Assembly: GCA_014237955.1 (NCBI GenBank)
Contig: JABABY010000002.1
Coordinates: forward strand, 1-43,903
Source: Planctomycetota bacterium
GTDB taxonomy: Bacteria > Planctomycetota > Planctomycetia > Pirellulales > UBA7805
Length of the DNA: 43,903 bases
Reading direction: 5' to 3'
Numbering within the stretch: the first letter of the stretch is position 1; every line of letters begins with the position of its first letter. The notes beneath the pieces were generated by a model. That model was given only the letters and a program-made list of their open reading frames with translations. It did no database searches and had not been told where the DNA came from. Of this stretch, positions 26,364 to 41,526 are shown piece by piece. Made by a program: the position numbers and the translations under genes.

Positions 26364-26512
26364 GAGCTACCCACGTAAAGACTTCATAACGGGGCAGCTT
26401 TCCACGGTGGGGCATTCTGCCTCGCACCGCAGCCGTATTTCTTGCGGCAGCTTGCTGACCCATCACCTTACAGCCAAACACCTTGTGCTTTCTCCAAGAG
26501 ATCCTCGTCTTT

Positions 26513-26528
26513 CGGCACAGCCATTGCT
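26513..26528 (+). promoter_or_regulatory. Sigma-54 (-24/-12) promoter candidate upstream of the ECF sigma gene
   Basis: cGGCACagccaTTGCt: GG at 26514-26515 and GC at 26526-26527. The spacing is exactly that of the consensus TGGCAC-N5-TTGCW. The site faces the ATG at 26622, about 95 nt away, and lies about 150 nt downstream of the enhancer-binding protein gene. Confidence 0.55.
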
Positions 26529-26621
26529 TCTCATTTGAACAGAAAAAGGGACCAGCGTTTTGGACGGTTGGTCGGCTTAGGTGTTTGTACGGTTTGTCCA
26601 GTGAGAAGGGAATGAAGTGCC

Positions 26622-27272: not shown

Positions 27273-27327
27273 AAAAGGTTCAGTAAGTAGTTGTTTACCA
27301 AAGATTTTCCAACGGAGTTTACTGAAA

Positions 27328-28821
27328 ATGACAAACGCTTCCAGGATTGCCGGAGTGTCCAGGGCTACTGAGAAAAACAAGATATCTCGAGTTCATCATG
27401 AGCCCAAGAGAAACGAGAAATCCAAACCAGTCGCGGAGGACAATCCGGTTCGTTTATATCTCATGCAAATGAGTACGTTTCCCATGCTCAGTCGTGCTGA
27501 GGAATTGGAAGCGGCCAAAAATATCGAAAGTTCGCGTAAAAAGTATCGTGAAGAAATGCTGGCAAATTATTACATAATCTGCGGCGCGATCAATATTCTT
27601 GAAAGTATTGGGCGAGGGACACTGAGGGTTGATAGGACACTGGACTTTTCAGCCTCAGACGCATTAAAACGCCAGCACATTGAGTGTCGTATGGGGCCCA
27701 ATCTCGAGACGCTCAAAAAACTCGTAGACGACATGCCGGCGGACTTTAACACGGCAGTGAATCGTAAAATGCACAAGCAAAAGCGCCATCACGCGTGGCG
27801 GCGGCTTTCGAGGCGCCGCACAAAGGCGATGCGACTTCTTGAGGAGTTGCAAATACGTATCGAACAGCTTGAACCATTATTTAAAAATGTAATTGATATC
27901 AGCCAGAAAATGAACCGCGCCAAGCGTCAGGTGGATAAAAATCGCGCAAAACATTATTTGGGTTCGGCATCAGAAAGTCGCGCCGAAGTCTGTAGGTTGA
28001 TGAAGTTGACCCTTGAGTCCCCCGCGACTCTCGACCGACATGTGAAGAAAATTACGCAATACCAGCAAGCGTATGTTCAAGCAAAGCGAGATTTAGTGGC
28101 AGGCAATCTTAGATTGGTGGTTTCGGTTGCAAAGAAGTACACCAACCGAGGCTTGAGCATCATGGATCTTATTCAGGAGGGAAACGCCGGCCTCCTTCGT
28201 GCCGCAGAAAAATTTGAGTACAAGCGAGGTTATAAGTTTTCAACCTATGCGGTGTGGTGGATTAAGCAGGCAATTACGCGGGCCATAGCCGACCAGAGTC
28301 GGACCATTCGAATACCAGTACACGCGATTGGGAAAATGCTGATGATTCAGGATCGTATGTCGGAATTAGTCCAACAGCTGGGTCGAGAGCCAAGCATCGA
28401 AGAGATGGCAGAGGTTACAAAACTAAATGCTAGAGATGTTCGATCACTAATAAAAATGCGACAGCCGCCGCTATCCCTCGACCATCCCAGTGGCACGCTT
28501 GACGAGGTTCGTTTTGGTGAGGCTATTCACGATACTCGAGGTGTGGATCAGATAGAGTCTCTTCACCATCACCACCTTCGGGAGCGTCTCGATAGCGTGA
28601 TGCGTGTTTTAGATGTACGTGAGCGGGAAATCTTGCGGTTACGATATGGACTGGCAGATGGAAGTACGAAAACCTTAGATGAGATCGGGAAAATATTTTC
28701 AGTATCACGAGAGCGAATTCGTCAAATTGAATGTCGGGCCATGAATAAACTGAAGGCACCGGCGCAGTCGACTTGCTTGCGAGGATTTTTGAACATCGAC
28801 CAGGTGTCAGCGACCGCATAG
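27328..28821 (+). CDS. Sigma-70 family sigma factor of RpoD type (group 1/2-like) with a roughly 200-aa insertion between regions 1.2 and 2
   Basis: 497 aa. Region 1.2 reads [21 protein letters not shown]. Regions 2.1-2.4 read [74 protein letters not shown]. Region 4.2 reads [28 protein letters not shown]. Only about 37 aa precede region 1.2, so there is no acidic region 1.1. ACGGAG lies 10 nt upstream of the ATG. Confidence 0.9.
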
Positions 28822-28832
28822 GAGTGCCCCCG

Positions 28833-29312
28833 ATGATCTCACTCGACAACGTTTGCGATCATGACAACGACAAGTTGGGGGAGTGCTTCAAAAAGAAGGC
28901 ACATCAGTCGTGTGGAAAAATTATTTCGAAGCGACTCTTTGTGGCCGAGTCTGATCATGAACGTTTGACTTTACGGAGCCATGCTCTAGAGCATATTGGA
29001 TATGAGGTGATTGCTTGTCAGGCCATGGAAAATATTCTTCCTGCCATACATTTGATGTTCGCCCAAAAGACCAACCAGACGCTTGTTGATCTGGTGATTT
29101 GTGATGCTACACTCTTAAGCGATGCGGCAATCGAAAAGATTATTCAAACACAACGGGCCAATCGCTTTCCCCCGCTCATTTTGTTAGCCGACTCTCCTAA
29201 CTCCGAGATGCTTTCGCGGACAGCAAGATTAAAGCGTAACGCCACATTTGACAAAACATTCAATCCGCTACGGCAATTGGATGTCGTCCGCCAGCTGGCG
29301 CCTATCCTATAA
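28833..29312 (+). CDS. Single-domain receiver (CheY-like) protein, divergent
   Basis: I prefer the ATG at 28833, which is 11 nt after the sigma gene stop. The pattern is REC-like: RLFVAESD (beta1), VDLVICDATLL (beta3, with a candidate acceptor Asp), PPLILLADS (beta4) and ATFDKTF (beta5 Lys). The acidic pocket is non-canonical, so the call is tentative. Confidence 0.5.
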   Translation: MISLDNVCDHDNDKLGECFKKKAHQSCGKIISKRLFVAESDHERLTLRSHALEHIGYEVIACQAMENILPAIHLMFAQKTNQTLVDLVICDATLLSDAAIEKIIQTQRANRFPPLILLADSPNSEMLSRTARLKRNATFDKTFNPLRQLDVVRQLAPIL

Positions 29313-29329
29313 GCGGAATCGTCTTGCAG

Positions 29330-29354
29330 AACGTGGCGTTGTGTTGCATCGTTG
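29330..29354 (+). promoter_or_regulatory. ECF-type promoter-like motif GAAC-N17-CGTT upstream of the outer-membrane factor gene
   Basis: GAAC at 29330-29333 and CGTT at 29351-29354, separated by a 17-nt spacer. It lies about 285 nt upstream of the ATG at 29638. This is a motif resemblance only. Confidence 0.2.
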
Positions 29355-29637
29355 TTCCATAGTATGAGAGTCTTTAGCGGGTCCTTTAATCAGCTGCCCA
29401 GAATCGTGTAGGCAGATATCTGCGGACCATCTTGGCAGCCTTCCATTGTCCGGGCATGTGAAGATGTACGGATTAGTAAAACTGCCAAATGTATGTTGTG
29501 GATAGCAGTTGTTGCGACTCTGCCGGCCTTTGAGTGTCCGGTGGTTTTGTAGTCGCGACCGAACCGATATTGCACGCTAGAGGTCTCATGACGGTTATGC
29601 CGATTGTGCCAGTTTCTGGTTGTTTATTGGGTACTGA

Positions 29638-31371
29638 GTGCAACAAAGTGCTTCCCGTCTTCCGCGTCGGAGCCATTTATTCATGCTGGGCGATTCGTTC
29701 CGTTGTTCGTCAAGCGGACTCTTGGCCGCTCGGGCTTGGTTTGCGCATCAAGCTAGCAAGCCTGCAGGGCGGCTTGTTTTAGTCTGTCTGTGTATCACCG
29801 TCTGTGCCAGCACAACCGGCTGTACCCGCTTTGGCGGTTCGAGTCTGATGGATTGGTGGCAGAATGGGATGAAGGTAGGCCCAAACTATGGCCGGCCTGC
29901 GGCGATGGTTGCTGACGATTGGATTGAGGAAGAAAACAAACATGTTCGAAGTGACCGCCCCGAGGATGTGTACTGGTGGACCGTGATGAACGATCCGGCT
30001 CTCAACAGGCTGATCGAACTTGCCAACGAAGAAAATTTGCCGCTCAAAATAGCTGGGATGCGGGTGCTTCAAGCACAGGCTACTCGTGCCATCGCGGTAG
30101 GTCTCATCTTTCCACAGTCGCAGGGTATTTCGGGCCAATATTTGTCGGTCCTGCAGAGCAAAAATCAGGGATTGGCTTTGCCACTTCCTGTAAACGATCG
30201 ATTACCCAATAACTGGCAAAACTGGAACACGGGTTTTAACCTCTCCTGGGAACTGGATGTCTGGGGCCGTTTCCGGAGGAATCTGGAATCCGCAAATGCA
30301 AATCTGGAAATGTCGGTGGAAGATTATGATGCTGTACTGGTAGGCCTCCTGGCGGAAGTGGCAACCACCTATCTTGAATTGCGGACCTACCAACAAAGGC
30401 TTATTTATGCGCATCAGAATGTTGCAGCCCAGGAAGGATCGTTAAAAATTGCCCAGGTCCGTTTTGAGGCGGGCGAAACAGATAAGCTTGATGTGACGCA
30501 GGCCGAATCCAATCTGGGCAATACTCAGGCTATTATTCCAGAATTGGAAATAGGGGTCCGCCAGTCATCCAATGCTCTGTGTGTTTTGCTAGGAATTCCC
30601 ACGCAAAAACTGGGGGATTTAGTGCCTGATCTCCAGACGCCAATCCCCACAGCACCGACCATTGTCTCAGTAGGCTTGCCCGCCGATTTGATTCGTCGGC
30701 GTCCTGATATCCGCGCCATTGAGCGTGCTGCTGCTATAGCAAGTGCACGCATTGGTGTTGTCGCATCGGAGCTTTATCCGAGTTTTTCCATCAACGGCAC
30801 GATTGGAACTTCGGCGCGTAATTTCGATAGGCTCTTCCAGGGTGATAGTACCAGTGGGATTATGAATCCCAGCTTCAGTTGGAAGATCCTGAATTATGGC
30901 CGCCTCATGAATGAAATTGCCATCCAGGATGCAGTATTCCAACAGCGTGCGATTGAATATCAAGAAAGAATTTTGGTGGCAAACAAAGAAGTCGAAGATT
31001 CGTTGATCAGCTATATCAAGACACAAAAACAGGTGAAATATTTAAATGAAAGTGTGGCGGCTTTAAAGGAATCTGTGCGATTGGCAGAACTCAAATACAA
31101 AGCTGGCGAAATCGATTTCAATAGGGTGTTTCTCTTGCAGAGCGATCTTACTAAGGCCCAAGACCAGTTAGCCCAGAGCCAGGGGAACGTGGTAATGAGC
31201 CTAATTGGTATTTATCGAGCGCTAGGGACGGGTTGGCAAATTCGCCTTGGAAACCAATCGTCCGCAGTTGCCGATCAAACGGCAACGCTCGAACAGATAC
31301 CACGTGTGGCGAGTCCGGCACCTTTTAGGAAGGTTGCCTCACAGTCGATCCGGAGATTGCCGTCGCCGTGA
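29638..31371 (+). CDS. Efflux outer-membrane factor lipoprotein (NodT/OprM family)
   Basis: 577 aa. A lipobox-like VCASTTGC follows a hydrophobic stretch. The N-terminal half reads GPNYGRP ... DPALNRLIE, and the two-repeat OEP architecture includes FPQSQGISG, WELDVWGRFRR and the second-half YPSFSINGTIG. The exact start is uncertain, with an alternative ATG at 29683. Confidence 0.85.
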   Translation: MQQSASRLPRRSHLFMLGDSFRCSSSGLLAARAWFAHQASKPAGRLVLVCLCITVCASTTGCTRFGGSSLMDWWQNGMKVGPNYGRPAAMVADDWIEEENKHVRSDRPEDVYWWTVMNDPALNRLIELANEENLPLKIAGMRVLQAQATRAIAVGLIFPQSQGISGQYLSVLQSKNQGLALPLPVNDRLPNNWQNWNTGFNLSWELDVWGRFRRNLESANANLEMSVEDYDAVLVGLLAEVATTYLELRTYQQRLIYAHQNVAAQEGSLKIAQVRFEAGETDKLDVTQAESNLGNTQAIIPELEIGVRQSSNALCVLLGIPTQKLGDLVPDLQTPIPTAPTIVSVGLPADLIRRRPDIRAIERAAAIASARIGVVASELYPSFSINGTIGTSARNFDRLFQGDSTSGIMNPSFSWKILNYGRLMNEIAIQDAVFQQRAIEYQERILVANKEVEDSLISYIKTQKQVKYLNESVAALKESVRLAELKYKAGEIDFNRVFLLQSDLTKAQDQLAQSQGNVVMSLIGIYRALGTGWQIRLGNQSSAVADQTATLEQIPRVASPAPFRKVASQSIRRLPSP

Positions 31372-31420
31372 TCGCCAAGTATCCCATACTTGAGCATAGT
31401 ATGAGAGATCCGCACCACGT

Positions 31421-31450
31421 GTGCGTCATGGCAAAATTACCATGACGCAC
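31421..31450. terminator. Bidirectional hairpin terminator between the convergent OMF and hdeD-like genes
   Basis: Perfect 11-bp stem, GTGCGTCATGG (31421-31431) and CCATGACGCAC (31440-31450), with an 8-nt loop. AGATTTTCTT follows on the plus strand. It sits 50 nt after the OMF stop and 29 nt after the hdeD-like stop. Confidence 0.6.
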
Positions 31451-31478
31451 AGATTTTCTTGCAGCGAGAATCAACGCT

Positions 31479-32057
31479 TTATGCTTCGGAGCGATCCTTC
31501 AGTTCGTTACCGAGCATCACCCAATACCAACCGTTGAAAATCATTTCGATACCGATGTAGAGCCCAATAATCATGGCCCCTGTGTACGGCCAGCCTTTAT
31601 AAATCAGAACCCCTAAAAGCAATGCAATGATGCCGCTCAGAAGCGCCCAGCCCCAGCCAGCAAATTGCATAGATAGGGCCGCTATGATACGAATAATCCC
31701 ACCAACAATAAAGAAAGCAGCCAATAGCGCACTAAGGACGAGGACCGCTTCTTGATGATCGTCCACCATGAATAAACCGACGACAACATAAATGATGCCG
31801 ATAAGAAGATTGAGAAGGAACCCATTCCATTTGCCGGCCCAAAAGGCATTGATGATCTGGGCAATACCACCGGCAAGGATTAAGATTCCAAAGAGCACCA
31901 CGGCTGCCTGAGAGGCAAAGAAACAATAGATTACCGCAATGACCCCAAGGATGATAAGTACCAGCCCTAGGGTGGTAAACCACTTCCAGTCATCCTGCAG
32001 GTGCTCAAGTTCGTGAGTATCTTTCACATTTGTTCTCGCCGGTGCGCGCTTAGCCAT
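31479..32057 (-). CDS. HdeD-family (DUF308) membrane protein
   Basis: 192 aa with six evenly spaced hydrophobic helices. The repeat character (GLVLIILGVIAVIY ... GWALLSGIIALLLGVLIY) is typical of HdeD/DUF308. Confidence 0.78.
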   Translation of the reverse strand: MAKRAPARTNVKDTHELEHLQDDWKWFTTLGLVLIILGVIAVIYCFFASQAAVVLFGILILAGGIAQIINAFWAGKWNGFLLNLLIGIIYVVVGLFMVDDHQEAVLVLSALLAAFFIVGGIIRIIAALSMQFAGWGWALLSGIIALLLGVLIYKGWPYTGAMIIGLYIGIEMIFNGWYWVMLGNELKDRSEA

Positions 32058-32569
32058 GTCTTAATCTCCTCGTCATTGTCGATAGGGATACGTTCTTTCC
32101 ATTTGATCTTTTTTGCAAAGCGACATACGGGTGCTCCGTATCATGAAATCGCTCAGAAGCTGTGAGAGACCGGTGTGGCAGTCTCAGTTTCTATCCTGAT
32201 TGGGCAATTGCTGAAAAGCAATGGTCTCCTGCCTTTGTGGCAAAAAGAACACAAGTCATTCGGTATTCGTGTTTTATAGCCCCTTGCAGCTTGGATCGAT
32301 CGAGCAAGAAAATTGGTTCCCGAACTCTTTTTTGCGATCTGCCCAACAGCGACTGAGAAGAAGTTTCCAATGGGATTTCTTCTGATTTTCGATGGACAGG
32401 ACAAACGGGGCCGAATTTTAGCCTCAGCGAGACATCGAAATGCCCTGGGCTTGCGGATGACTATGATCGGGTGAATGTTTTGTCTAGAATTTTATACGCC
32501 TCCTAGGCAAAGCGAAACCGCGCAGTTGTCAGCTCGGAGCGTGGCGGCAGCCACCCGAATTTTGCAGAA

Positions 32570-33682
32570 ATGGGTTATATCGTGCAGCAAGCCAGTGCTA
32601 CGGGGCCATCCCGTGCCTTGAGAACTCTCTACTCTGCCGCTGCTTTTGTCATTGTCGTGGCGGGCATACGGGTCGCCGCACCGCTATTGGTACCCCTGCT
32701 CTTGTCTATCTTCATTGCCATTGTTTGCGCTCCGATACTCACCTGGCTTAAGTCAAAGCGTGTGCCGGTAGTGCTGGCTCTTGCGATTGTTATTGTTGGT
32801 CTAACGCTCATCGCCTTGGGTTTCATCGTTTTGATGGGTTCGTCGATTAACAGCTTCTCCCAAAATTTGCCAGGTTACGAAGCGAGTCTTAAGAAGACTG
32901 TGGACAGCGTGTTTAAATGGCTCGATCAATACAAATCGCTTCAGGGGTTGGAGCAATTTTCAGGGCAGGATTTTGTGACATCCATCCGGCAGTCTCTTGA
33001 TGTCGGTGCCGCAGTACAATTTGCTGGAGGGATGGTGAGCAGCCTGGGGGGTGCCTTTGGCAGTGCGTTTATGGTCGCCCTCACCGTAGTTTTTATTCTT
33101 TTGGAAGCAGCAGGATTTCCGTCCAAATTGGCCGCACTGTCCGGGGGCTCACAAAACACTCGGCAGCAGTTTAGTCGTATCGTTGCCGACGTAAGACATT
33201 ACCTTGTGTTGAAGACCATCATGTGTTTTGCAACGGGATTGCTGACAGGATTGTTTCTTTTTTTTATGGGGCTGGACTACCCATTTCTCTGGGGAACCCT
33301 GGCCTTTCTATTAAATTTTATACCAAATATCGGTTCCTTTATTGCCGCGATCCCCGCAGTGATTCTGGCGCTCGTTCAATTAGGCTGGCAGGGGGCTGGC
33401 TGGATTATTGTGGGCTACGTTGTCATCAATATGCTTATCGGTAACGTCATAGAGCCACGAGTCTTTGGTCGGGGACTGGGTCTTTCGCCGCTCGTAATCT
33501 TTGTGGGATTGGTCCTTTGGGGATGGATTCTCGGACCTGTTGGGATGGTTCTCTCGGCCCCTTTGACGATGGTGGTGAAAATTACACTAGAAAGCCAACC
33601 CGACGCGCACTGGATTGTGGTCCTGCTTAGTTCCGATGCGAGCGTTGCTACGCCAGCGGTATCCTCCAATACAACGCATTAA
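32570..33682 (+). CDS. AI-2E family transporter (PerM/UPF0118)
   Basis: 370 aa, polytopic. It carries the family motif LNFIPNIGSFIAAIPAVILAL followed by VIEPRVFGRGLGLSPLVIF. Confidence 0.88.
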   Translation: MGYIVQQASATGPSRALRTLYSAAAFVIVVAGIRVAAPLLVPLLLSIFIAIVCAPILTWLKSKRVPVVLALAIVIVGLTLIALGFIVLMGSSINSFSQNLPGYEASLKKTVDSVFKWLDQYKSLQGLEQFSGQDFVTSIRQSLDVGAAVQFAGGMVSSLGGAFGSAFMVALTVVFILLEAAGFPSKLAALSGGSQNTRQQFSRIVADVRHYLVLKTIMCFATGLLTGLFLFFMGLDYPFLWGTLAFLLNFIPNIGSFIAAIPAVILALVQLGWQGAGWIIVGYVVINMLIGNVIEPRVFGRGLGLSPLVIFVGLVLWGWILGPVGMVLSAPLTMVVKITLESQPDAHWIVVLLSSDASVATPAVSSNTTH

Positions 33683-34516: not shown

Positions 34517-34714
34517 ATGGGCAACACAGGTCCCAGAAACTGTACCGCTCCAGAATTGGCCAAGTACGGTATTGATCTGGTGGATTTTGTTCGTGTGAAG
34601 TTGCAGTGTCAGCAATGTGCGCAAGTGTGGGCTCCGGACCACGATCGAGGACAGCTTGTTCACCACTACTGGCATTGCCCCAATCGGTGCAATCATACGT
34701 TTTCCGAAGGTTAA
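34517..34714 (+). CDS. Possible small zinc-ribbon-like protein (65 aa)
   Basis: AGGA lies 8 nt upstream of the ATG. It has a CxxC ... CPxxC arrangement (LQCQQCAQVW ... WHCPNRCN). It sits in an otherwise gene-free AT-richer gap, with competing ORFs on both strands. Confidence 0.3.
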   Translation: MGNTGPRNCTAPELAKYGIDLVDFVRVKLQCQQCAQVWAPDHDRGQLVHHYWHCPNRCNHTFSEG

Positions 34715-35291
34715 ATGTATCCTTCGGGCAGTCGAGACAACCGGTTTGATTGCTTGCCCGAGATGTCTCCGTTGTAGCCTTCAAAACAGAGCCTTCCGAA
34801 ATCAATCCACGGCCTTTTCTCGAAGGGCTAGAAAGTGGGATGTGGCAGCGAGAGAAGAGTCGTTTCTATCCTGAGCTTTTGGGGTGAAGGGTGCTCGTTT
34901 CCCGATTGTGCCGGGCGTTCTTTATCCCGAGGTATGTCCTATAGATCTGATGGCGGATCGCCTCAATGTCGCATTCTGAAATGTACCTGTATGCAATCAG
35001 TAGTTCAGATAATCCAAAAATAACGACTTTGAGTACGTTTTTTGACTTTTTGTCAGGTAAATCCGGCAAATTATCCGGCCCAGCCAATTTTTGCGAGTTA
35101 TTGTAGTAATAACTGGTATCCCGCCCTAGAATAAGTAGCGGGTGACCAGTCTGGTTGCGCAAGGTCTACAGCGGGCTGTTGCGATAAACCAGAAGCGGAG
35201 CAAGGCGTTTTACGTGCTGGCTAGTGTTTCGGAACAGAATCGCATCCCGGCACGTGGGTTTCTTTCAAATAATACTGGTCGGAGTCCTGCC

Positions 35292-38018
35292 ATGACCTCA
35301 CGGTTTGGTTTTGTATGCGCGGCACTGGTAGTTGGGATCATTAGCCTCACTGCTAAGGGCACTGCCGAATCACCTTCGGGTGTGTCTCGGCTTGATACCT
35401 ATACATCTGCTGATGGCGAAACGTATTTTGCCTTGAGCCTCAAGCCAAATGCCAGTGATGCCTCTCCGGCGAATACGGAGGTTGTCGTTCTGTTCGATAC
35501 CTCGGCCAGTCAGTTTGGCGAATACCGGACAGCGGCTCTGGCAACACTTAGAAAATTTCTGAAACAAGCTGGGAACAATGATCGCGTAAAATTAATTGCA
35601 GTCGATTTAGACGCCACGCCCCTCACAAACGGTTTCGTTGCACCCGGTAGTGCAGCCCTCGATGAGGCCCTGGAAAAACTAAACCGCCGTGTTCCGCTCG
35701 GGTCTACCGATATGGAGAAGGCAGTCGAGTCAGCAGTCGATAGTTTTCAAAAGTCTGGAGATGGTAAGCGGGCTGTTGTGTATATCGGAGATGGTCAAAG
35801 TGCCGCCAAAAAGGTCGCCGGGGAGAATCTCCGATCCCTCATCGGTCAATGTGTGGAAAAGCGATTACCAATTACCAGTTATGCAATAGGTCCAGGTGCC
35901 CAACCGTTTTTTTTAGCGACTCTGGCAAACCAAACAGGTGGTCGGGTGCTGTTAGATGGTTCTCAGATCAACCCCGATGGTGCAGCAAGGGAGTTGGCTG
36001 CTGCAGTCAAGGGAACAGTGGTCTGGCCAGAAGGTGTGACCTGGCCACAAGGAGTGACCGCGTATCCGAATCCACTGCAACCGCTGCGAACCGATCGAGA
36101 CAATATTGTGGTGGGGAAAGGCGCGACTATAGTTAACTCCAAGATAGAACTAAACGGCTTGGTCGATGGCGAAACGCGCACATTCTATTTTGATCAGCCC
36201 GCTTCTAAGTCGGAAGCTGCAAACAGCTACCTTGCAAACCTTGTAACAGAGGCCGCAAAGAACAGTGGACTGACCTTGGCAACATTAGGCACTTCTGGCC
36301 TTGGAAAAATCCGCCAAGGGATAGCACATAATGTTGAATCCCTGAATCGATTGGCACAATCAGCATCTTCCGTAAACAATTCCGGGGCTGCGGGACGATT
36401 GGCCCGAGGCGCGCAGAAACTCGATCCGGAGGATCCGGATGCCAATGCCATCCTCCGACATGATAGGCAATTGTCGAGCGACGACCACAATTTACTCGAT
36501 GGATTTATTGATGACTCAGGTGAGGGTATCGACACAGTTCGCCAGAGGCAACAAGTGGTTACAGATGCCGTCAAGACAGATACTAAAGAGACTCTGGAAA
36601 AAGCCAATCGTCTTATGGCCGTAGATCCACAGACTGGCGAAGAACTTTTAAAGCTCCAATTGGACAAGGTGCGAGACGCACTCGACTTAGATCCCGATGT
36701 TCGTTTACAGCTTGAGAATGAACTCAAGTCCGCTGTCCGGTTAGCGGGTACGAGAAAAATCGAGCATGACCAAGAACGCCGGGAACAGCAGGAAGTTGAG
36801 GCACGGAAAATCGAACGACAGCGACTTGTTACGGATTTAGAGCGAAAGCAACAGGCAATGAACGCGATGATGGTCCGCTTCTCATCGCTTATGAAAGAAG
36901 ATCGCTACGATCAGGCAGAACTAACTGTGGCCGAGGTGCAGCAAGTGAGCAGAGACAATGCCCTGTTGCCCGACCCCGCTATCACCGCGGCCAGCGAGAG
37001 TTCACATAATACAATGATGTACGAGGAGTATCTGGTAGCAGTCCAGCAATACAACCGCGGAGTGACTCGCCAATATCTGGATGTACTGAAGTCATCGATT
37101 CCTATGCCCATTGATACGCCTATTATTTATCCAGATGCTCAACAGTGGCAAAGTTTAACAGAGCGCCGCAAAAAATGGTCAGAGGTAGACTTGCAGATAA
37201 AAAGCGCTGCTGAAAAAAAGATACTTAAAGAGCTTGATGAGATCATTGGGCCAGAAGTTATCGACTTTCCTGATCCGACACCTTTGGTTCTGGTCCTTGC
37301 GCGGATCTCAGCCAGTACTTCTACTCCCGGACAAGATGACGGTATGCAAATCCAACTCGACGACAGAAATCTTGAGGAACTGGGCATCGCCTCCGACACA
37401 CCGGTTCAAATGAAGGTTGCGGGTATTACGCTTCGGTCGGCCATAAAATTGTTATTGCTAAAAATCGATCCGGAGTTGACGTACACGATCCAAGATGAAG
37501 TACTTATGATTACGACAAAAGAAGCAGCAACAGAGAATTTAACAACAAAGGTCTACCCGGTTGCCGATCTTGTCTTGCCGATTACGCTCGATACCACTGG
37601 TGTTGGCGGCTTTGGGAGCAATACTTCTGGCGGGATGATGGGTTTTGGCGGTATGGGAGGTGGTCAATCAGCCGGCATGGGCGGTATGGGTGGTGGCGGC
37701 ATGGGTGGTGGCGGCATGGGTGGTGGCGGTATGGGTGGCGGTATGGGTGGTGGTGGTGGCGGCGGCATGTTTAGTGATCAACGCCTGAAGACCGATATTG
37801 AGCCGATTGGAATGAGTCCCTCCGGGATTACCATCTACCGGTTTCGCTATTGGGGCGACTGCCGCCTCTATGAAGGTGTTATGGCTCAGGAATTACTCGA
37901 GACCCACCCGGAAGCTGTTGTCTTGATGCCGAGCGGATTCTATGCAGTGTTATACGACCAAATCGACGTTGAGTTTTTTGAGTTGTCGGGCGCTGAGCCC
38001 ATCCTTACTGGTCCTTAA
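35292..38018 (+). CDS. Secreted multidomain protein: vWA (MIDAS), coiled coil, STN-like module, Gly/Met-rich tract and C-terminal peptidase S74-type intramolecular chaperone (tail-fibre) domain
   Basis: I prefer the ATG at 35292 (MTSRFGFVCAALVVGIISLTAKG, a signal peptide) with GGAG 8 nt upstream. The DxSxS MIDAS motif, VVVLFDTSAS, starts at 35496. The central part is charged and helical. ITLRSAIKLLLLKIDPELTYTIQDEVLMITT, followed by KVYPVADLV, resembles the secretin/TonB N-terminal short domain. A G/M-rich tract spans 37599-37772. SDQRLKTDIEPI...YRFRY...GVMAQELLETHPEAV, from 37773 on, matches the endosialidase-chaperone (S74) domain, including the Ser-x4-Lys dyad. Confidence 0.85.
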   Translation: MTSRFGFVCAALVVGIISLTAKGTAESPSGVSRLDTYTSADGETYFALSLKPNASDASPANTEVVVLFDTSASQFGEYRTAALATLRKFLKQAGNNDRVKLIAVDLDATPLTNGFVAPGSAALDEALEKLNRRVPLGSTDMEKAVESAVDSFQKSGDGKRAVVYIGDGQSAAKKVAGENLRSLIGQCVEKRLPITSYAIGPGAQPFFLATLANQTGGRVLLDGSQINPDGAARELAAAVKGTVVWPEGVTWPQGVTAYPNPLQPLRTDRDNIVVGKGATIVNSKIELNGLVDGETRTFYFDQPASKSEAANSYLANLVTEAAKNSGLTLATLGTSGLGKIRQGIAHNVESLNRLAQSASSVNNSGAAGRLARGAQKLDPEDPDANAILRHDRQLSSDDHNLLDGFIDDSGEGIDTVRQRQQVVTDAVKTDTKETLEKANRLMAVDPQTGEELLKLQLDKVRDALDLDPDVRLQLENELKSAVRLAGTRKIEHDQERREQQEVEARKIERQRLVTDLERKQQAMNAMMVRFSSLMKEDRYDQAELTVAEVQQVSRDNALLPDPAITAASESSHNTMMYEEYLVAVQQYNRGVTRQYLDVLKSSIPMPIDTPIIYPDAQQWQSLTERRKKWSEVDLQIKSAAEKKILKELDEIIGPEVIDFPDPTPLVLVLARISASTSTPGQDDGMQIQLDDRNLEELGIASDTPVQMKVAGITLRSAIKLLLLKIDPELTYTIQDEVLMITTKEAATENLTTKVYPVADLVLPITLDTTGVGGFGSNTSGGMMGFGGMGGGQSAGMGGMGGGGMGGGGMGGGGMGGGMGGGGGGGMFSDQRLKTDIEPIGMSPSGITIYRFRYWGDCRLYEGVMAQELLETHPEAVVLMPSGFYAVLYDQIDVEFFELSGAEPILTGP
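37686..37730 (+). repeat. Three near-perfect tandem 15-nt units (atgggtggtggcggc, encoding MGGGG) inside a longer G/M-rich coding tract (37599-37772)
   Basis: Read directly from the sequence. The units occupy 37686-37700, 37701-37715 and 37716-37730. Degenerate copies flank them on both sides. Confidence 0.9.
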
Positions 38019-38105
38019 GATCGCTTGAGAAAAAAATATTTAAGCACGACAGAAAAGTTATCTGGACTAAGTGTATAAGAGATTTGCTTTGTGGAGAACG
38101 AACCT

Positions 38106-40091
38106 ATGCTGAAACAATTCAAGCCATGTACCAATCAGCCAAGCAGCCGTTTATTGCTGATGGTCCTAATGTTGATCGGTTTTTTAGCCATCTCCAAAGC
38201 AGATGCTAACCCACCAGTTGCAGTCAATGATGGGAAAAGCCTTTTTGCACCAGATGCAAACCAAAAAGTTTCCACGGATGTGCAGAATGCAGTGATACCG
38301 ACAAAGCGGGGCGTGGCTAGCAATGCGTCCAGCTCCAAAGTATCACCAGAGACATACTCTAGAGCCAAATTGAATGTAGAGCGGAAAGCAGGCGATGGTT
38401 GGGAGGCCGCGTACTATCGTTTTCTACAGGAGCATCGTGTTCGTCCCAAGCTAATCCGCTCGAAGGTACGTCAACTCGTTCAGGGAGATCCCCAAGATCT
38501 GGAGCAGGCTATTGCGCTCATCCGCGCTTCGCTGCGGGCAGGTCAGGTACAGCCCTGGATGTACGAAGCACTGGCACTAGCCATGCAAATGAATAATATG
38601 CCGGCATCTGAGGTTGAGCGGGTTCTGATGTCTTCTGCTGATTTTGCCACGACACCCCACCAATTGGTTTTTTTGGCCGATTATATGGGACGCCTCGGCA
38701 ACCATGCCCGCGCTCTTGATTTGTTGCACCAGGCAACTTTGCGCACACAGGGCTTTCCCGAAGCGTATGTCAAAGCCCTTGCGTTGGCCGTTTACTTGCA
38801 AGATGACGACGCCATCAAATGGACCTCTCTTGGCATTCTGGGACAGGAATGGCCAAAAGAGGAATCGGATATAACTGCGAAGGCTCGCAGAAATGCCGAG
38901 GCATTGCTCGCTCGCCTGCGCGAGGAAGATAAAAATGAAGAGGCCGACCAATTTGCAAAGCAGCTCGGAGAAGTTCTGCAGCGGGATGTCGTCGTGAAGG
39001 TGTCTTGGAGCGGGGAAGCTGATGTCGATCTGATGGTTGAGGATCCGACCGGGAGCATCTGTTCCTACCACCAGCCTCGGACCGCTGGCGGGGGCGTTCT
39101 TATGGGAAATCCCAATGATACTTTGGATCGATCCGCTGGGTCGGGGTACGCTGAGGCGTATTGCTGTCCCGAGGGCTTTGCCGGAGATTACCGCATCCTG
39201 CTGCGACAGGTTTGGGGAAAAATTTCCGCCGGGCGCGTGACGGTAGATGTTTGGAATCATTCCGGTACAGAACGGGAAATTCATTTTCGACAAGTTATTC
39301 CCCTGGACGACAATGGGGCCATTGTGACATTCAATCTGGAGGAAGGGCGCCGCAAGGAGTCGTTAGCAGATCAGCAAATTGCCAATGACATTACGAATCA
39401 ATTGGCAGTCAATCGCACGATCCTGGCACAGCAGATCGATGCGGTTTCGGATTCCGATGTTTCTCTGAGCCAAGCTGCTGCTAGTCGCTTGCGTCAGCCT
39501 TCAACGATTGGTAACCGGCCAGTATTCAGTCGATCTGCAGTAGGATACCAACCACAAATTACCGTTCTCCCTGTGGGTGTGACCATGCAGGCAAACGCAG
39601 TCGTTTCGGCCGATCGCCGTTATGTGCGTATTACCTGCATTCCGTTCTTTTCCCACATCAAGGGAGTCGTCCAATACAATATTCAGACCGGCGTTACCGA
39701 GCAGGGACAAACGGATACTGCGTTTGCTGATCTCGATATTGGGATTGATAATGACAATAATGATGGTGACAATGAGGACCAAAATACTGGAGAACTGTTG
39801 CTCACGATAGTCAACACGTCTCTTGCCCCTGGCGGTTGTACCGTGGCAATTGTCTCGCGTACGGGCCCCACCCAGGAGGCCCTGACCGTGACCGTTACCT
39901 TTGACAATACCCTGGCAACAGTGTGGTGGCCATCCACATTGTGTGTGGCCCCCTCAGTGACCGCGGTCACCATTCCTGCAGGGGATAGTGGTACAGTCTT
40001 TTCGGTCTCAGGATTGGTTGCAGGTTCCGCGGTCATTCAGGTAACGGCACCAGGGTATGTGGCTGATAGCGACACCATAGCAATCAACTAG
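38106..40091 (+). CDS. Secreted hypothetical protein with helical-repeat N-terminal half, a DUF2135-like beta domain and a C-terminal Ig-like domain
   Basis: The ATG at 38106 has GGAGAA 9 nt upstream. The signal peptide reads RLLLMVLMLIGFLAISKADA. The segment VVVKVSWSGEADVDLMVEDPTGSICSYHQPRTAGGGVL...GYAEAY...GDYRILL (38988 to about 39270) resembles the DUF2135-type domain seen at the C-terminus of bacterial VIT/vWA proteins, as I recall it. An Asp/Asn-rich linker and a Big-like C-terminus follow. Confidence 0.8.
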   Translation: MLKQFKPCTNQPSSRLLLMVLMLIGFLAISKADANPPVAVNDGKSLFAPDANQKVSTDVQNAVIPTKRGVASNASSSKVSPETYSRAKLNVERKAGDGWEAAYYRFLQEHRVRPKLIRSKVRQLVQGDPQDLEQAIALIRASLRAGQVQPWMYEALALAMQMNNMPASEVERVLMSSADFATTPHQLVFLADYMGRLGNHARALDLLHQATLRTQGFPEAYVKALALAVYLQDDDAIKWTSLGILGQEWPKEESDITAKARRNAEALLARLREEDKNEEADQFAKQLGEVLQRDVVVKVSWSGEADVDLMVEDPTGSICSYHQPRTAGGGVLMGNPNDTLDRSAGSGYAEAYCCPEGFAGDYRILLRQVWGKISAGRVTVDVWNHSGTEREIHFRQVIPLDDNGAIVTFNLEEGRRKESLADQQIANDITNQLAVNRTILAQQIDAVSDSDVSLSQAAASRLRQPSTIGNRPVFSRSAVGYQPQITVLPVGVTMQANAVVSADRRYVRITCIPFFSHIKGVVQYNIQTGVTEQGQTDTAFADLDIGIDNDNNDGDNEDQNTGELLLTIVNTSLAPGGCTVAIVSRTGPTQEALTVTVTFDNTLATVWWPSTLCVAPSVTAVTIPAGDSGTVFSVSGLVAGSAVIQVTAPGYVADSDTIAIN

Positions 40092-40101
40092 AGTCAATCC
40101 A

Positions 40102-41526
40102 ATGAAACCAATGGCGAGTCATCCAATGGCAGGTTGTTTACGATTGTTGTTACCGGGCGTTTTTCTCGCGATGGTCGGATTGTTATCCTCCACCGCTGGA
40201 AACCAGGCCTTCGCCCAGTTTGGTGGTGGTGGATTCAATGCCTCGCAGGTCGGTGGGGTGGCGATCGATGCCCAAGGTGCGATTGCCGATTTAAGGCCAC
40301 AGGTCCGCCAGGAAATCGCAAACAAAAGGGATCGGTTGGCAAGAGAAGTTCCCGCAGGCATGCAGGAGGGAGTTCGCCTACGCAAGATCTCCCTGCGGGC
40401 ACTGCAGGAGGCAATTTCCCATGCCCAGACGGCCGGTGAAGGGCAGACGCTTTCGCCCCAGATCCGTTATCTTGGCGGAATCCAGCGTATCCAGTACGTT
40501 TTTGTCTATCCCGAGAAAAACGATATTGTGCTTGCCGGGCCGGGCGAGGCTTGGCGTATCGACGATTTGGGACAAGTTGTGGGGGCCACGACTGGACGTC
40601 CGGTGATTCTCCTGCAGGACTTCCTGGTCGCTCTTCGCGCAGCGTTTGCTCCCGAGGTGGCGCCGATTACCTGTTCGATCGATCCGACCCGGGAGGGAAT
40701 CAAAAATCTTAGGACCCTCATGGCCAGCTTTGGACGGCTGAACGGGCCAGCCCAAGTGGAGCAAGTTGTTGCTAGAAAACAGGATATTGAAGAGAGTCTT
40801 GGTCCGCAGAGAGTCTCCGTTTCGGGGGTGGATCCTGCGAGCCGGTTTGCCTGGACGCTCGTCGTTGCGGACTACCGGATGAAATGTCTTGGGATGGGTT
40901 TGGAGCCAGCACCGATTGTGGGAATGCCGAGTTACTTAAAGATGCTCAAATCGCACTCGAAAGATTTTATGCCTCGCTGGTGGATGGAGACCGATTACGA
41001 AGCACTGTTGACCGATGCTGCGGGACTCGCGTGGGAATTGCGAGGCCAAGGGGTCAAGGTCCTCGCAGAAGATGAACGGATCAGTGCCGATGGTAAACGG
41101 ACACGTACTGGAAAAGTAAATAAGGTGGCCCGCAAGTGGGCCGAGACGATGACCGAAAAATATGACGAGCTTTCTGTTGTCGATCCAATTTTCGGGCAGT
41201 TGCGCAACTGTATGGATATGGCCGTAGTAGGTGCTCTTCTTCAGAGCGAAAATTTACCCCAAAAAGCCGGATTGAGCATGGATGGGCTGCTCGATACGGA
41301 AAGCTTGGCCACACCTGCAGGGACCGTTCCGCAAAGCACGCCGTCGATTGTCAGTTTTCTCAAGCGGCCCCGATCCTTGGTGATTACGGCTTCAGGGGGT
41401 GTGTGGATCAATCCTTATGAGGTGATTGAACACCAAGAGATAAGCAAGCAACTGGCGACAGAGAGGAGCAGTGCGATCACCAAGCTGCGCCAGGATGTCG
41501 TGCCGGGCAATTGGTGCTGGGACTGA
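40102..41526 (+). CDS. Secreted hypothetical protein, DUF1598-like (planctomycete family; assigned from memory of the motif pattern)
   Basis: The start is 10 nt after the upstream stop. The signal peptide reads LRLLLPGVFLAMVGLLSSTAGNQAFA. The motifs LRKISLRALQEAI and IRYLGGIQRIQYVFVYPEKNDIVLAGPGEAW are what I associate with DUF1598 proteins of Rhodopirellula-type genomes. Confidence 0.78.
   Translation: MKPMASHPMAGCLRLLLPGVFLAMVGLLSSTAGNQAFAQFGGGGFNASQVGGVAIDAQGAIADLRPQVRQEIANKRDRLAREVPAGMQEGVRLRKISLRALQEAISHAQTAGEGQTLSPQIRYLGGIQRIQYVFVYPEKNDIVLAGPGEAWRIDDLGQVVGATTGRPVILLQDFLVALRAAFAPEVAPITCSIDPTREGIKNLRTLMASFGRLNGPAQVEQVVARKQDIEESLGPQRVSVSGVDPASRFAWTLVVADYRMKCLGMGLEPAPIVGMPSYLKMLKSHSKDFMPRWWMETDYEALLTDAAGLAWELRGQGVKVLAEDERISADGKRTRTGKVNKVARKWAETMTEKYDELSVVDPIFGQLRNCMDMAVVGALLQSENLPQKAGLSMDGLLDTESLATPAGTVPQSTPSIVSFLKRPRSLVITASGGVWINPYEVIEHQEISKQLATERSSAITKLRQDVVPGNWCWD

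What the first reader, a model, noticed from the sequence alone, without database searches (positions are those of the whole stretch)
35292..41526. Three-gene operon of secreted proteins built around a vWA protein capped by a phage-type self-cleaving tail-fibre chaperone domain
- Layout: three consecutive plus-strand genes, separated by 87 nt and 10 nt, all begin with signal peptides.
- Gene 1 combines a MIDAS-containing vWA domain (DTSAS), a long charged helical region, an STN-like module, a Gly/Met-rich tract, and a C-terminal domain matching the peptidase S74 intramolecular chaperone of endosialidase and phage tail spikes (SDQRLKTDIEPI...).
- Gene 2 carries a DUF2135-like beta domain and an Ig-like C-terminus.
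- Gene 3 looks like a planctomycete DUF1598 protein.
- Why it matters: the S74 domain is established to drive homotrimerisation of the upstream segment and then remove itself, in phage tail fibres and in eukaryotic MYRF. I cannot match it, attached to a cellular vWA adhesion/ligand-binding protein with two dedicated secreted partners, to any characterised system.
- Inference: this could be a trimeric, self-processing envelope or surface fibre/adhesin module, or a periplasmic scaffold.
Basis: partly seen in the sequence, partly recalled or inferred. Interest (0 to 1): 0.8.

Follow-up and report, generated by a model that had tools for sequence, protein, structure and literature searches.

The report
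Self-cleaving phage cap on planctomycete vWA protein
A widely conserved but uncharacterised exported protein of Pirellulales planctomycetes is here split into two genes, and its first half has gained a short phage-type self-cleaving "chaperone" domain, an unusual but not unprecedented reuse of a tail-fibre module by a cell.

Summary
The three plus-strand genes exist as described, each with a plausible signal peptide. HMMs confirm the vWA domain with a complete MIDAS, the DUF1598 domain, and a Peptidase_S74 domain with an intact Ser828/Lys833 motif. DUF2135 and the Ig-like domain are not confirmed, and the STN-like module is only weakly supported.

- **Genes 1 and 2 are one protein split in two.** They are the halves of a conserved Pirellulales protein with at least 557 relatives in species genomes. 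In 54 of 61 loci holding both modules they form a single ORF of about 1350 aa, joined at the Gly-rich tract.
- **The S74 domain is a late add-on.** It occurs only in a small marine clade: the window plus five loci, all with the junction ...GGGMF|SDxRLK. It is more conserved than the rest of gene 1.
- **Predicted cleavage gives a native-like end.** It would release 81 aa and leave a ...GGGMF C-terminus, the same kind of end that S74-less split relatives have.
- **The trio predates S74.** A sister locus has all three genes without S74. Elsewhere DUF1598 genes stand alone.
- **No fibre-forming segment lies upstream of S74.**

I read this as a periplasmic or envelope scaffold with a self-removing oligomerisation cap, not a fibre adhesin. 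Its cellular function remains unknown. Cellular S74 proteins are already known (Bdellovibrio MAT fibres, MYRF).

The parts
35292..38018 (+). Gene 1 (908 aa): signal peptide, vWA, beta region, helical region, STN-like module, Gly/Met tract, S74 domain
   Evidence: ORF. Its start agrees with homologues P0002 and P0003. It has 268+ homologues.
35292..35366 (+). Predicted Sec signal peptide of gene 1 (aa 1-25, ...AKGTA|ES)
   Evidence: Sequence features and hydrophobicity. No dedicated predictor was run.
35478..35945 (+). vWA domain with complete MIDAS (D69-x-S71-x-S73, T139, D167)
   Evidence: Pfam VWA_3 1.2e-19 over aa 63-218. MIDAS residues are conserved in 28-32 of 32 homologues.
36279..37211 (+). 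Helical, highly charged region (about aa 330-640), with weak TPR matches in homologues
   Evidence: Sequence composition. TPR_14/TPR_2 sub-threshold hits in homologues at the equivalent position.
37239..37586 (+). STN-like module ending in the invariant VYPVxDLVxPI motif (about aa 650-765)
   Evidence: Invariant motif. STN 27.1 bits in P0104. Profile hit to the PupA signalling domain 2A02, E 0.023. No Pfam hit in the window protein itself.
37602..37772 (+). Gly/Met-rich low-complexity tract (aa 771-827) ending in Met-Phe. It is the linker at which the ancestral protein is split or fused.
   Evidence: Sequence and the 15-nt tandem repeat at 37680-37757. Fusion point in 54 loci.
37773..38015 (+). 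Short Peptidase_S74 intramolecular-chaperone domain (aa 828-908), with catalytic Ser828 and Lys833 in SDQRLK. The predicted cleavage site is Phe827|Ser828.
   Evidence: Pfam 24.9 bits for the isolated domain. PHROG 3e-18. Profile hits to 3GUD, 6F45 and 7DC3. It is the only S74 match in the six-frame window. The junction is conserved in all six clade members.
38106..40091 (+). Gene 2 (661 aa): the second half of the ancestral protein, now with its own signal peptide (aa 1-34)
   Evidence: 41% identity to aa 883-1334 of the fused homologue P0028, E 9e-108. Fused in 54 loci and adjacent in 6.
38400..38975 (+). TPR-like alpha-solenoid of gene 2 (aa 99-290)
   Evidence: AlphaFold2 pLDDT above 90. 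Foldseek returns only generic TPR matches such as MamA and CTPR.
38982..39338 (+). Beta-sandwich of gene 2 (aa 293-411) with a conserved Cys pair (C319, C354)
   Evidence: AlphaFold2 pLDDT above 90. Cys conserved in 48/48 and 43/48 homologues. DUF2135 not supported.
39537..39695 (+). Conserved C-terminal motif of the family (GYQPxI..LP.G....A.V.SADRRYVR...P.FS)
   Evidence: Invariant R504 and R505 with nearly invariant neighbours. Low-confidence beta-hairpin in the model. No Pfam match.
39726..40088 (+). Window-specific C-terminal extension of gene 2 (aa 541-661). It takes the place of the Gly-rich tail of most relatives.
   Evidence: No tblastn match in any of 86 loci. Absent from the L089 orthologue. 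No confident Pfam match. pLDDT below 50.
40102..41526 (+). Gene 3 (474 aa; the public call has 466 aa): exported DUF1598 protein
   Evidence: DUF1598 4.4e-24 over aa 191-278. 2918+ homologues of about 455 aa. AlphaFold2 pLDDT 84, pTM 0.85, with no PDB fold match.

Best explanation
**What it is**
Genes 1 and 2 encode the two halves of an ancient, Sec-exported, multi-domain envelope protein of Pirellulales. The domain order is:
- vWA with MIDAS
- a beta region
- a charged helical/TPR-like region
- an STN-like module
- a Gly-rich linker
- a TPR solenoid
- a disulfide-bearing beta-sandwich
- a conserved C-terminal motif

**How this version arose**
In most species this is one polypeptide of about 1350 aa. 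In a marine sub-lineage it was split at the Gly-rich linker. The first half then ends in a Gly-rich tract plus Phe, and the second half gained its own signal peptide. A DUF1598 gene came to lie downstream. Within that sub-lineage one clade, which includes this window, then appended a minimal (about 72-81 aa) phage-type S74 domain directly after the terminal Phe.

**How it most likely works**
1. After export, the S74 domains of several (by analogy, three) gene-1 chains associate.
2. This brings the Gly/Met tracts and STN-like modules together.
3. The Ser828/Lys833 dyad then cuts the Phe827|Ser828 bond.
4. An 81-aa fragment is released. The mature vWA-STN protein ends in ...GGGGGGGMF, which is the ancestral type of C-terminus.

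The mature protein would act in the periplasm or envelope as a metal-dependent (MIDAS) binding scaffold together with the gene-2 protein.

**Shown versus inferred**
- Shown: domain identities, the fusion/split relationship, clade restriction, and conservation of S74 and of its junction.
- Inferred: export, cleavage, oligomeric state, compartment, partnership with gene 3, and the cellular role.
For: **Fusion and split**
- Gene 2 aligns at 41% identity with the C-terminal 450 aa of 1350-aa homologues.
- Of 61 loci with both modules, 54 are one ORF (plus one more out of frame) and 6 are adjacent genes.
- The family has at least 557 relatives in GTDB species genomes, all Planctomycetota.

**S74 identity**
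- Pfam scores 24.9-30.3 bits for the isolated domains of the window protein and its closest relative P0002 (the third clade member, P0003, scores 18.2).
- PHROG virion-structural and tail-fibre families score down to 3e-18.
- There are 5874 relatives.
- The subfamily profile hits the solved chaperones 3GUD, 6F45 and 7DC3, aligning the SDxRxK motif.

**Evidence that S74 is functional**
- S74 is present in only 6 closely related loci, and all share ...GGGMF|SDxRLK.
- The domain is 58-80% identical across the clade, against 51-62% for the rest of gene 1.
- GC content is not anomalous, and the context is chromosomal and syntenic.

**Native-like product**
- S74-less split orthologues end in ...GGGGGMGF...GGFGF or ...GGMGFF.
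- 28 of 58 gene-2-module ORFs (fused or split) also end in a Gly-rich tract plus Phe.
- In this S74 subfamily the residue before the catalytic Ser is Phe in 106 of 213 domains.

**Order of events and compartment**
- Locus L089 has gene 1 without S74, then gene 2, then DUF1598.
- A conserved Cys pair in gene 2 and three signal peptides fit an oxidising, extracytoplasmic compartment.
- Self-cleaving S74 on a cellular exported protein has been shown experimentally for Bdellovibrio Bd3182 (PMC10769870).
Against: - No experiment or multimer model supports cleavage or trimerisation here.
- The domain is much shorter (81 aa) than the solved chaperones (129 aa or more). It probably lacks their C-terminal helical bundle.
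- The segment upstream of S74 is a Gly/Met low-complexity tract. It is not a triple beta-helix or coiled coil, so the classical substrate of the chaperone is absent.
- Pfam's threshold is missed when the whole protein is scored (19.3 against 22 bits), and by the isolated domain of relative P0003 (18.2 bits).
- The cellular function of the vWA/TPR protein family is unknown. Fold searches gave only generic TPR matches for gene 2 and nothing in the PDB for gene 3.
- The functional link to gene 3 rests on adjacency in a few related genomes only.
Confidence: 0.55

Rival explanations
1. The trio would be a dedicated module that builds a trimeric, self-processing surface fibre or adhesin. The vWA domain would be the adhesive head, and genes 2 and 3 would be its secreted partners.
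For: - The S74 domain is normally found on trimeric fibres and spikes.
- Bdellovibrio uses S74-capped trimeric fibres as adhesins.
- vWA domains commonly mediate adhesion.
- All three genes have signal peptides.
Against: - No fibre-forming repeat, beta-helix or stalk lies upstream of S74. Only an STN-like domain and a 57-aa Gly/Met tract are there.
- The vWA domain is at the N-terminus, about 600 residues from S74.
- The same protein family functions without S74 in hundreds of species.
- No outer-membrane anchor or surface-export signal was detected.
- Gene 3 stands alone in most genomes.
Confidence: 0.12
2. The S74-like domain is not cleaved. It would stay attached as a C-terminal oligomerisation or docking domain. 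For example, it could replace the covalent link to the gene-2 half that was lost when the gene split.
For: - The domain is a minimal version lacking the C-terminal part of the solved chaperones.
- S74 appears only in a lineage where genes 1 and 2 are split.
- Its high conservation fits any retained function.
Against: - The catalytic Ser and Lys and the whole SDxRLK motif are invariant in all six clade members and in 54 of 54 aligned subfamily members.
- The residue before Ser is the Phe that ends S74-less orthologues.
- Split orthologues without S74 exist and evidently manage without such a domain.
Confidence: 0.15
3. Gene 1 would be the periplasmic N-terminal part of a secretin-like outer-membrane channel system. 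The STN-like module and Gly-rich tract would belong to a secretin architecture, and genes 2 and 3 would be channel accessories.
For: - Homologue P0086 joins the same vWA-helical-STN N-terminus, after a Gly/Met tract, to a genuine Secretin domain (PF00263, E 3.9e-25).
- STN modules are typical of secretin and TonB-dependent-transducer N-termini.
Against: - P0086 is a single protein on a single MEGAHIT contig, and the join lies in a repetitive Gly-coding tract. An assembly chimera cannot be excluded.
- Gene 2 shows no similarity to the secretin part.
- No secretin or pilus genes lie in the window or in the related loci inspected.
Confidence: 0.08
4. The S74 segment would be a functionless relic of a phage-derived insertion or a recombination at the Gly-coding repeat.
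For: - The closest non-family relatives include phage virion proteins and basic proteins of phage type.
- The Gly tract is a DNA tandem repeat that could promote illegitimate recombination.
Against: - The domain is retained in six loci whose gene-1 bodies have diverged to about 50% identity.
- It is more conserved than those bodies, with intact catalytic residues and no frameshifts or stops.
- There are no phage genes nearby.
Confidence: 0.05

Closest known systems
Peptidase S74 intramolecular chaperone domain of phage endosialidases, tail spikes and tail fibres (K1F endoNF, GA-1 neck appendage 3GUD, T5 pb1, S16 gp37 6F45)
   Same: - The C-terminal position is the same.
- The SDxRxK motif with nucleophile Ser and base Lys is present.
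- The sequence profile links it to the solved structures.
- The expected outcome is the same: assembly-coupled self-cleavage that releases the domain.
   Different: - The host protein is a chromosomal, signal-peptide-bearing vWA/STN protein, not a virion fibre.
- The upstream segment is a Gly/Met low-complexity tract rather than a triple beta-helix or coiled coil.
- The domain is a minimal form of about 72-81 aa, against 129 aa or more in the solved examples.
Bdellovibrio bacteriovorus MAT (mosaic adhesive trimer) fibres with S74 caps, e.g. Bd3182 (PMC10769870)
   Same: - It is a cellular, exported bacterial protein ending in S74.
- Cleavage at the catalytic Ser has been shown experimentally for that family.
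   Different: - MAT proteins are long trimeric beta-helical fibres with adhesive tips and a shared N-terminal beta domain.
- The window protein has none of these. It belongs to an unrelated vWA-STN-TPR family.
Eukaryotic MYRF (ICA domain, 7DC3)
   Same: - S74-type domain is reused outside phages for trimerisation-dependent self-cleavage.
- The subfamily profile hits it at E 0.005.
   Different: - In MYRF the domain is internal and releases an N-terminal transcription factor from the ER membrane.
- Here the domain is terminal on an extracytoplasmic bacterial protein.
The uncharacterised Pirellulales vWA-STN-TPR protein family (annotated 'VWA domain-containing protein', 'hypothetical protein' or 'TPR repeat protein')
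   Same: - Genes 1 and 2 are clear members, at 33-63% identity over the whole length.
- The vWA/MIDAS, helical region, VYPVxDLVxPI motif, Gly tract, TPR, beta-sandwich and SADRRYVR motif are all the same.
   Different: - Here the protein is split into two genes.
- Gene 1 carries S74.
- Gene 2 carries a unique 120-aa C-terminal extension instead of the usual Gly-rich tail.
- A DUF1598 gene follows.
STN / N0-type modules of secretins and TonB-dependent transducers (e.g. PupA 2A02, FecA)
   Same: - There is weak sequence similarity in the ...ISLRSALRLML..LTY.I.D.VL.IT... segment.
- The expected location is periplasmic.
   Different: - No beta-barrel or secretin domain occurs in the window proteins.
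- The similarity is below curated thresholds.

Membership tests
Peptidase_S74 (PF13884) intramolecular chaperone | Profile-HMM match at or above Pfam's gathering score (22 bits) | tested here: met
   - The isolated C-terminal 88 aa score 24.9 bits, E 2.5e-5.
- Relative P0002 scores 30.3 bits.
- Scored as a whole protein it reaches only 19.3 bits, and relative P0003 reaches 18.2 bits.
Peptidase_S74 (PF13884) intramolecular chaperone | Catalytic Ser-Lys dyad in the S-D-x-x-x-K motif at the start of the domain | tested here: met
   - S828-D-Q-R-L-K833.
- Invariant in all six clade members and in 54 of 54 aligned subfamily members.
- It aligns with SDERHK of 3GUD.
Peptidase_S74 (PF13884) intramolecular chaperone | Similarity to solved S74 chaperone structures | tested here: met
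   - By sequence profile only: 3GUD E 4e-4, 6F45 E 1.3e-3, MYRF 7DC3 E 4.8e-3.
- No 3D model of this domain was made.
Peptidase_S74 (PF13884) intramolecular chaperone | Sits C-terminal to a trimeric fibre segment (triple beta-helix, coiled coil) whose folding it assists | tested here: not met
   - The upstream 57 aa are a Gly/Met low-complexity tract, preceded by an STN-like globular module.
- No fibre repeats were detected by Pfam.
Peptidase_S74 (PF13884) intramolecular chaperone | Trimerisation-dependent autoproteolysis releasing the domain | not testable with these tools
   This needs expression with S828A and K833A controls, or at least a multimer structure prediction.
von Willebrand factor A domain with MIDAS | HMM match plus the DxSxS...T...D metal-site residues | tested here: met
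   - VWA_3 scores 71.3 bits.
- D69, S71, S73, T139 and D167 are conserved in 28-32 of 32 homologues.
DUF1598 (PF07643) | HMM match above the gathering score | tested here: met
   Gene 3 scores 85 bits against a cut-off of 25.
DUF2135 (PF09906) | HMM match above the gathering score in gene 2 | tested here: not met
   - No hit in the window protein at E up to 10.
- One of ten homologues scores 13.5 bits against a cut-off of 22.
STN (PF07660) secretin/TonB N-terminal module | HMM match above the gathering score (28.4 bits) | tested here: inconclusive
   - The window protein gives no hit.
- Homologue P0104 scores 27.1 bits and P0014 scores 16.8 bits.
- The family profile against PDB 2A02 gives E 0.023.
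Bdellovibrio-type MAT fibres | Conserved N-terminal beta-rich domain of about 130 aa after the signal peptide, and a trimeric beta-helical stalk | tested here: not met
   - The N-terminus is a vWA domain.
- The middle is helical and TPR-like.
- There was no direct comparison with MAT sequences.
Secretin (PF00263) channel | Secretin C-domain in the protein or in an adjacent gene | tested here: not met
   - No Secretin hit in genes 1-3.
- Gene 2 is unrelated to the secretin part of P0086.
Anti-phage defence systems (PADLOC) | Match to any PADLOC model | tested here: not met
   No hits at E up to 0.01.

The most novel reading that the evidence does not exclude
The minimal S74 module of about 72-81 aa would be a portable, self-removing assembly cap that is not restricted to beta-helical fibres. 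In marine Pirellulales it would act on glycine-rich, Phe-terminated tracts, both in this vWA-STN scaffold and in the unrelated 286-aa P0271 family. There it would nucleate an ordered oligomer, for example a polyglycine-II or collagen-like bundle, or a cohesive FG-like mesh. The vWA-STN-TPR protein would be a structural component of a planctomycete-specific envelope assembly such as a pore or crateriform structure.
Probability: 0.12. Interest if true: 0.7.

Novelty: new variant of a known kind. Interest (0 to 1): 0.45.

Why it matters
**The S74 domain**
- S74 domains are understood as quality-control caps for trimeric phage fibres. The known reuses are in MYRF and Bdellovibrio fibres.
- Here a minimal S74 is grafted onto a non-fibrous exported vWA/STN scaffold, directly behind a glycine-rich tract.
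- It sits exactly where the S74-less relatives end. This gives a clean natural experiment on what S74 can assemble and on why a cell would add a removable cap.

**The host protein family**
- The analysis defines a large, conserved, wholly uncharacterised envelope protein family of Pirellulales, with hundreds of species and both fused and split forms.
- The family includes cultured strains (Bremerella, Bythopirellula), so its function may be open to genetic test.

Tried and rejected
**Searches that gave nothing**
- DUF2135 in gene 2: rejected after scanning the window protein and ten homologous beta-sandwich segments.
- Ig-like (Big) C-terminus of gene 2: no HMM support, a low-confidence model, and no homologues.
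- Direct phmmer of the S74 segment against PDB sequences: no hits. Only the profile worked.
- Foldseek of the gene-2 model: only generic TPR matches.
- Foldseek of the gene-3 model: nothing in the PDB, and one uninterpretable BFVD match to a Tupanvirus protein.
- Promoter and terminator scan: counts equal to shuffled controls.
- Rfam scan of the window: nothing.
- PADLOC: nothing.
- Literature: no paper mentions DUF1598. Papers on crateriform structures or secretins do not identify this family.

**Ideas rejected**
- Prophage or recent horizontal transfer as the context: rejected. The neighbours are housekeeping and regulatory genes, syntenic with a 1-Mb contig, and GC content is unremarkable.
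- The 437-aa gene upstream of a fused homologue (L003) as a hidden DUF1598: rejected.
- Gly-rich tracts as a general feature upstream of this S74 subfamily: rejected. Only 9 of 213 domains have one.

Full report
**1. The observation**

The three plus-strand ORFs exist at 35292-38018 (908 aa), 38106-40091 (661 aa) and 40102-41526 (474 aa). The gaps are 87 nt and 10 nt. The public gene call for gene 3 starts eight codons later.

Each N-terminus has a basic n-region, a strongly hydrophobic core and an AxA-like cleavage site.

Pfam results:
- Gene 1: VWA_3 at 1.2e-19 over aa 63-218. The MIDAS residues D69, S71, S73, T139 and D167 are conserved in 28-32 of 32 homologues.
- Gene 3: DUF1598 at 4.4e-24.
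- Gene 2: only sub-threshold TPR-type hits.

DUF2135 was not found in gene 2 or in nine of ten homologous segments. The 'Ig-like' tail has no HMM support, no homologues and a low-confidence model. The STN-like module is supported only through homologues: P0104 scores 27.1 bits against a cut-off of 28.4, and a family profile hits PupA 2A02 at E 0.023.

**2. The S74 domain is real**

- Scored in the whole protein, it falls just below Pfam's cut-off (19.3 against 22 bits).
- The isolated 88-aa C-terminus scores 24.9 bits, and the closest relative scores 30.3 bits.
- It matches phrog_6121 (virion structural protein) at 3e-18 plus twelve further PHROG families, eleven of them tail-fibre.
- tblastn finds 46-48% identical segments in structural proteins of Brucella, Rhizobium and Sulfitobacter phages.
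- An exhaustive search found 5874 relatives at E up to 1e-3.
- A 54-sequence profile of this subfamily has S1, D2, R4 and K6 invariant. It hits the solved chaperones 3GUD (GA-1 neck appendage, E 4e-4), 6F45 (S16 gp37, 1.3e-3) and MYRF 7DC3 (4.8e-3), aligning the SDxRxK motif.

The catalytic Ser828 and Lys833 are therefore in place, and the predicted released fragment is 81 aa.

This is a minimal form. In C-terminal members of the subfamily the domain runs only about 72 aa from the Ser to the end, and the residue before the Ser is Phe in 106 of 213 cases. It is the only S74 match in the window.

**3. What genes 1 and 2 are**

Gene 1 has 268+ homologues among the candidates scored, all planctomycetal where named. 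They fall into two length classes, about 820 aa and about 1350 aa.

Gene 2 aligns at 41% identity (E 9e-108) with residues 883-1334 of a 1347-aa homologue. The long class is therefore gene 1 (up to the Gly tract) fused to gene 2.

A scan of one genome per species found at least 557 relatives. Those in the 80 loci retrieved are all from Planctomycetota, mainly Pirellulales, and include the cultured Bremerella sp. JC770 and Bythopirellula polymerisocia Pla144.

Across 86 loci:

| Arrangement | Loci |
|---|---|
| Gene-2 module follows gene-1 module, one ORF | 54 (plus 1 out of frame) |
| Gene-2 module follows gene-1 module, adjacent genes | 6 |
| No gene-2 module within up to 10 kb | 8 |
| Runs off the contig | 17 |

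The join is always the Gly-rich tract after the invariant VYPVxDLVxPI motif.

AlphaFold2 on gene 2 gives a confident TPR-like solenoid (aa 99-290) packed on a beta-sandwich (aa 293-411). A long helix follows, then a poorly modelled region containing the family's conserved SADRRYVR motif. Foldseek returns only generic TPR proteins. A Cys pair in the sandwich is conserved in 48/48 and 43/48 homologues. Together with the signal peptides, this suggests an oxidising extracytoplasmic compartment.

**4. S74 is a recent, clade-restricted add-on**

Among the 120 listed homologues only the window protein and its two closest relatives (63% and 52% identical) carry S74.

Among the loci, S74 is found only in L001, L002, L007, L009 and L011, all marine MAGs. 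All have the identical junction ...GGGMF|SDxRLK.

The domain is 58-80% identical across these loci, against 51-62% for the rest of gene 1. Its GC content is unremarkable. The context is chromosomal and syntenic with a 1-Mb contig: sigma-54 two-component system, two sigma factors, OEP, DUF308 and an AI-2E transporter. The domain is therefore maintained by selection and is not a prophage remnant.

**5. The predicted cut regenerates the ancestral C-terminus**

- Split relatives that lack S74 end in ...GGGGGGMGF...GGGGFGF...GGLGF or ...GGGMGFF.
- 28 of 58 gene-2-module ORFs (fused or split) also end in a Gly-rich tract plus a terminal Phe.
- Cleavage before Ser828 would leave ...GGGGGGGMF.

Locus L089 has gene 1 at 42% identity, 823 aa, ending GGGMGF with no S74. 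It is followed by a gene-2 orthologue (48% identity), a DUF1598 gene, HTTM and tsaD.

The most economical history is: a fused ancestor next to tsaD; then a split at the linker with DUF1598 downstream; then S74 appended after the terminal Phe.

**6. Gene 3**

DUF1598 proteins of about 455 aa are very common in Pirellulales, with 2918+ hits at about 45% identity. In the two large genomes inspected they stand alone among unrelated genes.

Adjacency to genes 1 and 2 is seen only in the marine sub-lineage: the window, L001, L002, L011 and L089. None of the roughly 55 other loci with a gene-2 module has it. In the relatives the gene-2 to gene-3 gap is several hundred nt.

The AlphaFold2 model is confident (pLDDT 84, pTM 0.85) but has no PDB match, the best being E 0.74. 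It has one BFVD match, to a Tupanvirus protein, that I cannot interpret. A functional link is possible but not shown.

**7. Mechanism**

I commit to the following reading.

- Genes 1 and 2 encode the halves of a Sec-exported periplasmic or envelope scaffold. The vWA/MIDAS head binds a ligand.
- In this clade the first half is made with a self-removing S74 cap.
- By analogy with endoNF, GA-1, T5, MYRF and Bd3182, the caps associate as trimers, which aligns the Ser/Lys dyads.
- The Phe827|Ser828 bond is then cut. This releases 81 aa and leaves an oligomerised protein with the native type of Gly-rich, Phe-terminated end.

Shown: domain identities, the fusion/split relationship, clade restriction, and conservation. 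Inferred: export, cleavage, stoichiometry, compartment and biological role.

The main weakness is that the usual substrate of S74, a triple beta-helix or coiled coil, is absent, and that the domain is a shortened version.

**8. Rivals**

- *Surface fibre or adhesin.* This lacks any fibre segment, and the vWA domain is about 600 residues from S74.
- *Uncleaved docking domain.* This is hard to square with the invariant catalytic motif and with the Phe junction.
- *Secretin-associated reading.* This rests on one protein, P0086, in which the same N-terminus is joined to a true Secretin domain after the Gly/Met tract. It comes from a single short-read contig, and the join lies in a repeat.
- *Neutral relic.* This is contradicted by the conservation.

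**9. Comparison and novelty**

S74 on cellular proteins is not new. Bdellovibrio MAT fibres self-cleave at the S74 serine (PMC10769870). MYRF uses the domain in eukaryotes (my own knowledge, plus the 7DC3 hit). A second marine Pirellulales family, P0271, also carries it: 286 aa, with a signal peptide, a coiled coil and GGFGGGF|SDERLK, in chromosomal context.

What is new:
- the host architecture, a non-fibrous vWA-STN scaffold;
- the Gly-rich tract as the immediate upstream element;
- the clear evolutionary series of fused, split and split-plus-S74 forms.

I rate it a new variant of a known kind, of moderate interest. The host family itself is large, conserved and uncharacterised.

Noticed in passing
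window 34517-34714 (+): A small 65-aa ORF with a CxxC...CPxRC zinc-ribbon-like pattern lies in the roughly 1-kb 'intergenic' region upstream of gene 1. Its DNA is conserved with the equivalent region of L002, with mostly third-position differences, so it is probably a real unannotated small gene.
   Followed up: partly
window 35089-35110 (+): The 22-nt block TTTTGCGAGTTATTGTAGTAAT lies about 180 nt upstream of the gene-1 start. It is conserved in the window, L002 and L001, although their proteins are only about 50-60% identical. It is a candidate promoter or operator, and the sigma-70 consensus scan did not find it.
   Followed up: partly
L006 8164-11685 (protein P0086): This homologue has the vWA-helical-STN N-terminus joined, after a Gly/Met tract, to a genuine Secretin domain (PF00263, E 3.9e-25). 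An ORF of more than 5000 aa follows it. It is either a real domain swap at the linker or a short-read assembly chimera.
   Followed up: partly
L090 and L091 8001-8861 (protein P0271 / P0127 cluster): This 286-aa marine Pirellulales protein has a signal peptide or TM segment, a coiled coil, GGFGWGGFGGGF, and then the same short S74 (64% identical to the window's). Its neighbours are housekeeping genes. It is a second cellular use of the Gly-rich-Phe|S74 arrangement in this lineage.
   Followed up: partly
proteins P0128, P0135, P0141 and others: These phage-like proteins of 1300-1800 aa carry two internal copies of the short S74 domain, each preceded by ...F|SD. This suggests polyprotein-style self-cleavage at two sites.
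   Followed up: no
window 40102-41526 (gene 3 model): The confident AlphaFold2 model of the DUF1598 protein has no PDB fold match. Its single BFVD match is to a Tupanvirus 'J domain-containing protein' (E 1.3e-6, 291 aligned columns).
   Followed up: no
window 39726-40088 (gene 2 aa 541-661): This acidic Asp/Asn-rich linker plus a beta-rich segment of about 100 aa is unique to this genome. It is absent even from relatives whose gene 2 is 58-75% identical. It replaces the Gly-rich, Phe-terminated tail of most family members.
   Followed up: partly
L029 + L033 (MAG DASSFG01); L044 + L083 (MAG DASYGD01): Some genomes hold two paralogues of the gene-1 module. In the DASYGD01 MAG one copy (L044) is fused to the gene-2 module and the other (L083) runs off its contig. 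In DASSFG01, L033 ends ...GMGFF with no gene-2 module nearby and L029 is cut short.
   Followed up: no
window 37680-37757; proteins P0288, P0131: The Gly/Met tract is a 15-nt DNA tandem repeat. Several database proteins show frameshifted translations of it (W/R/H-rich strings), so assemblies are error-prone at this point.
   Followed up: no
window 23527-33682 compared with L001 1-8803: The upstream gene order is conserved with a 1-Mb contig whose gene 1 is only 52% identical. The order is HAMP histidine kinase, sigma-54 response regulator, ECF-type sigma factor, sigma-70, OEP outer-membrane protein, DUF308 and AI-2E transporter.
   Followed up: partly
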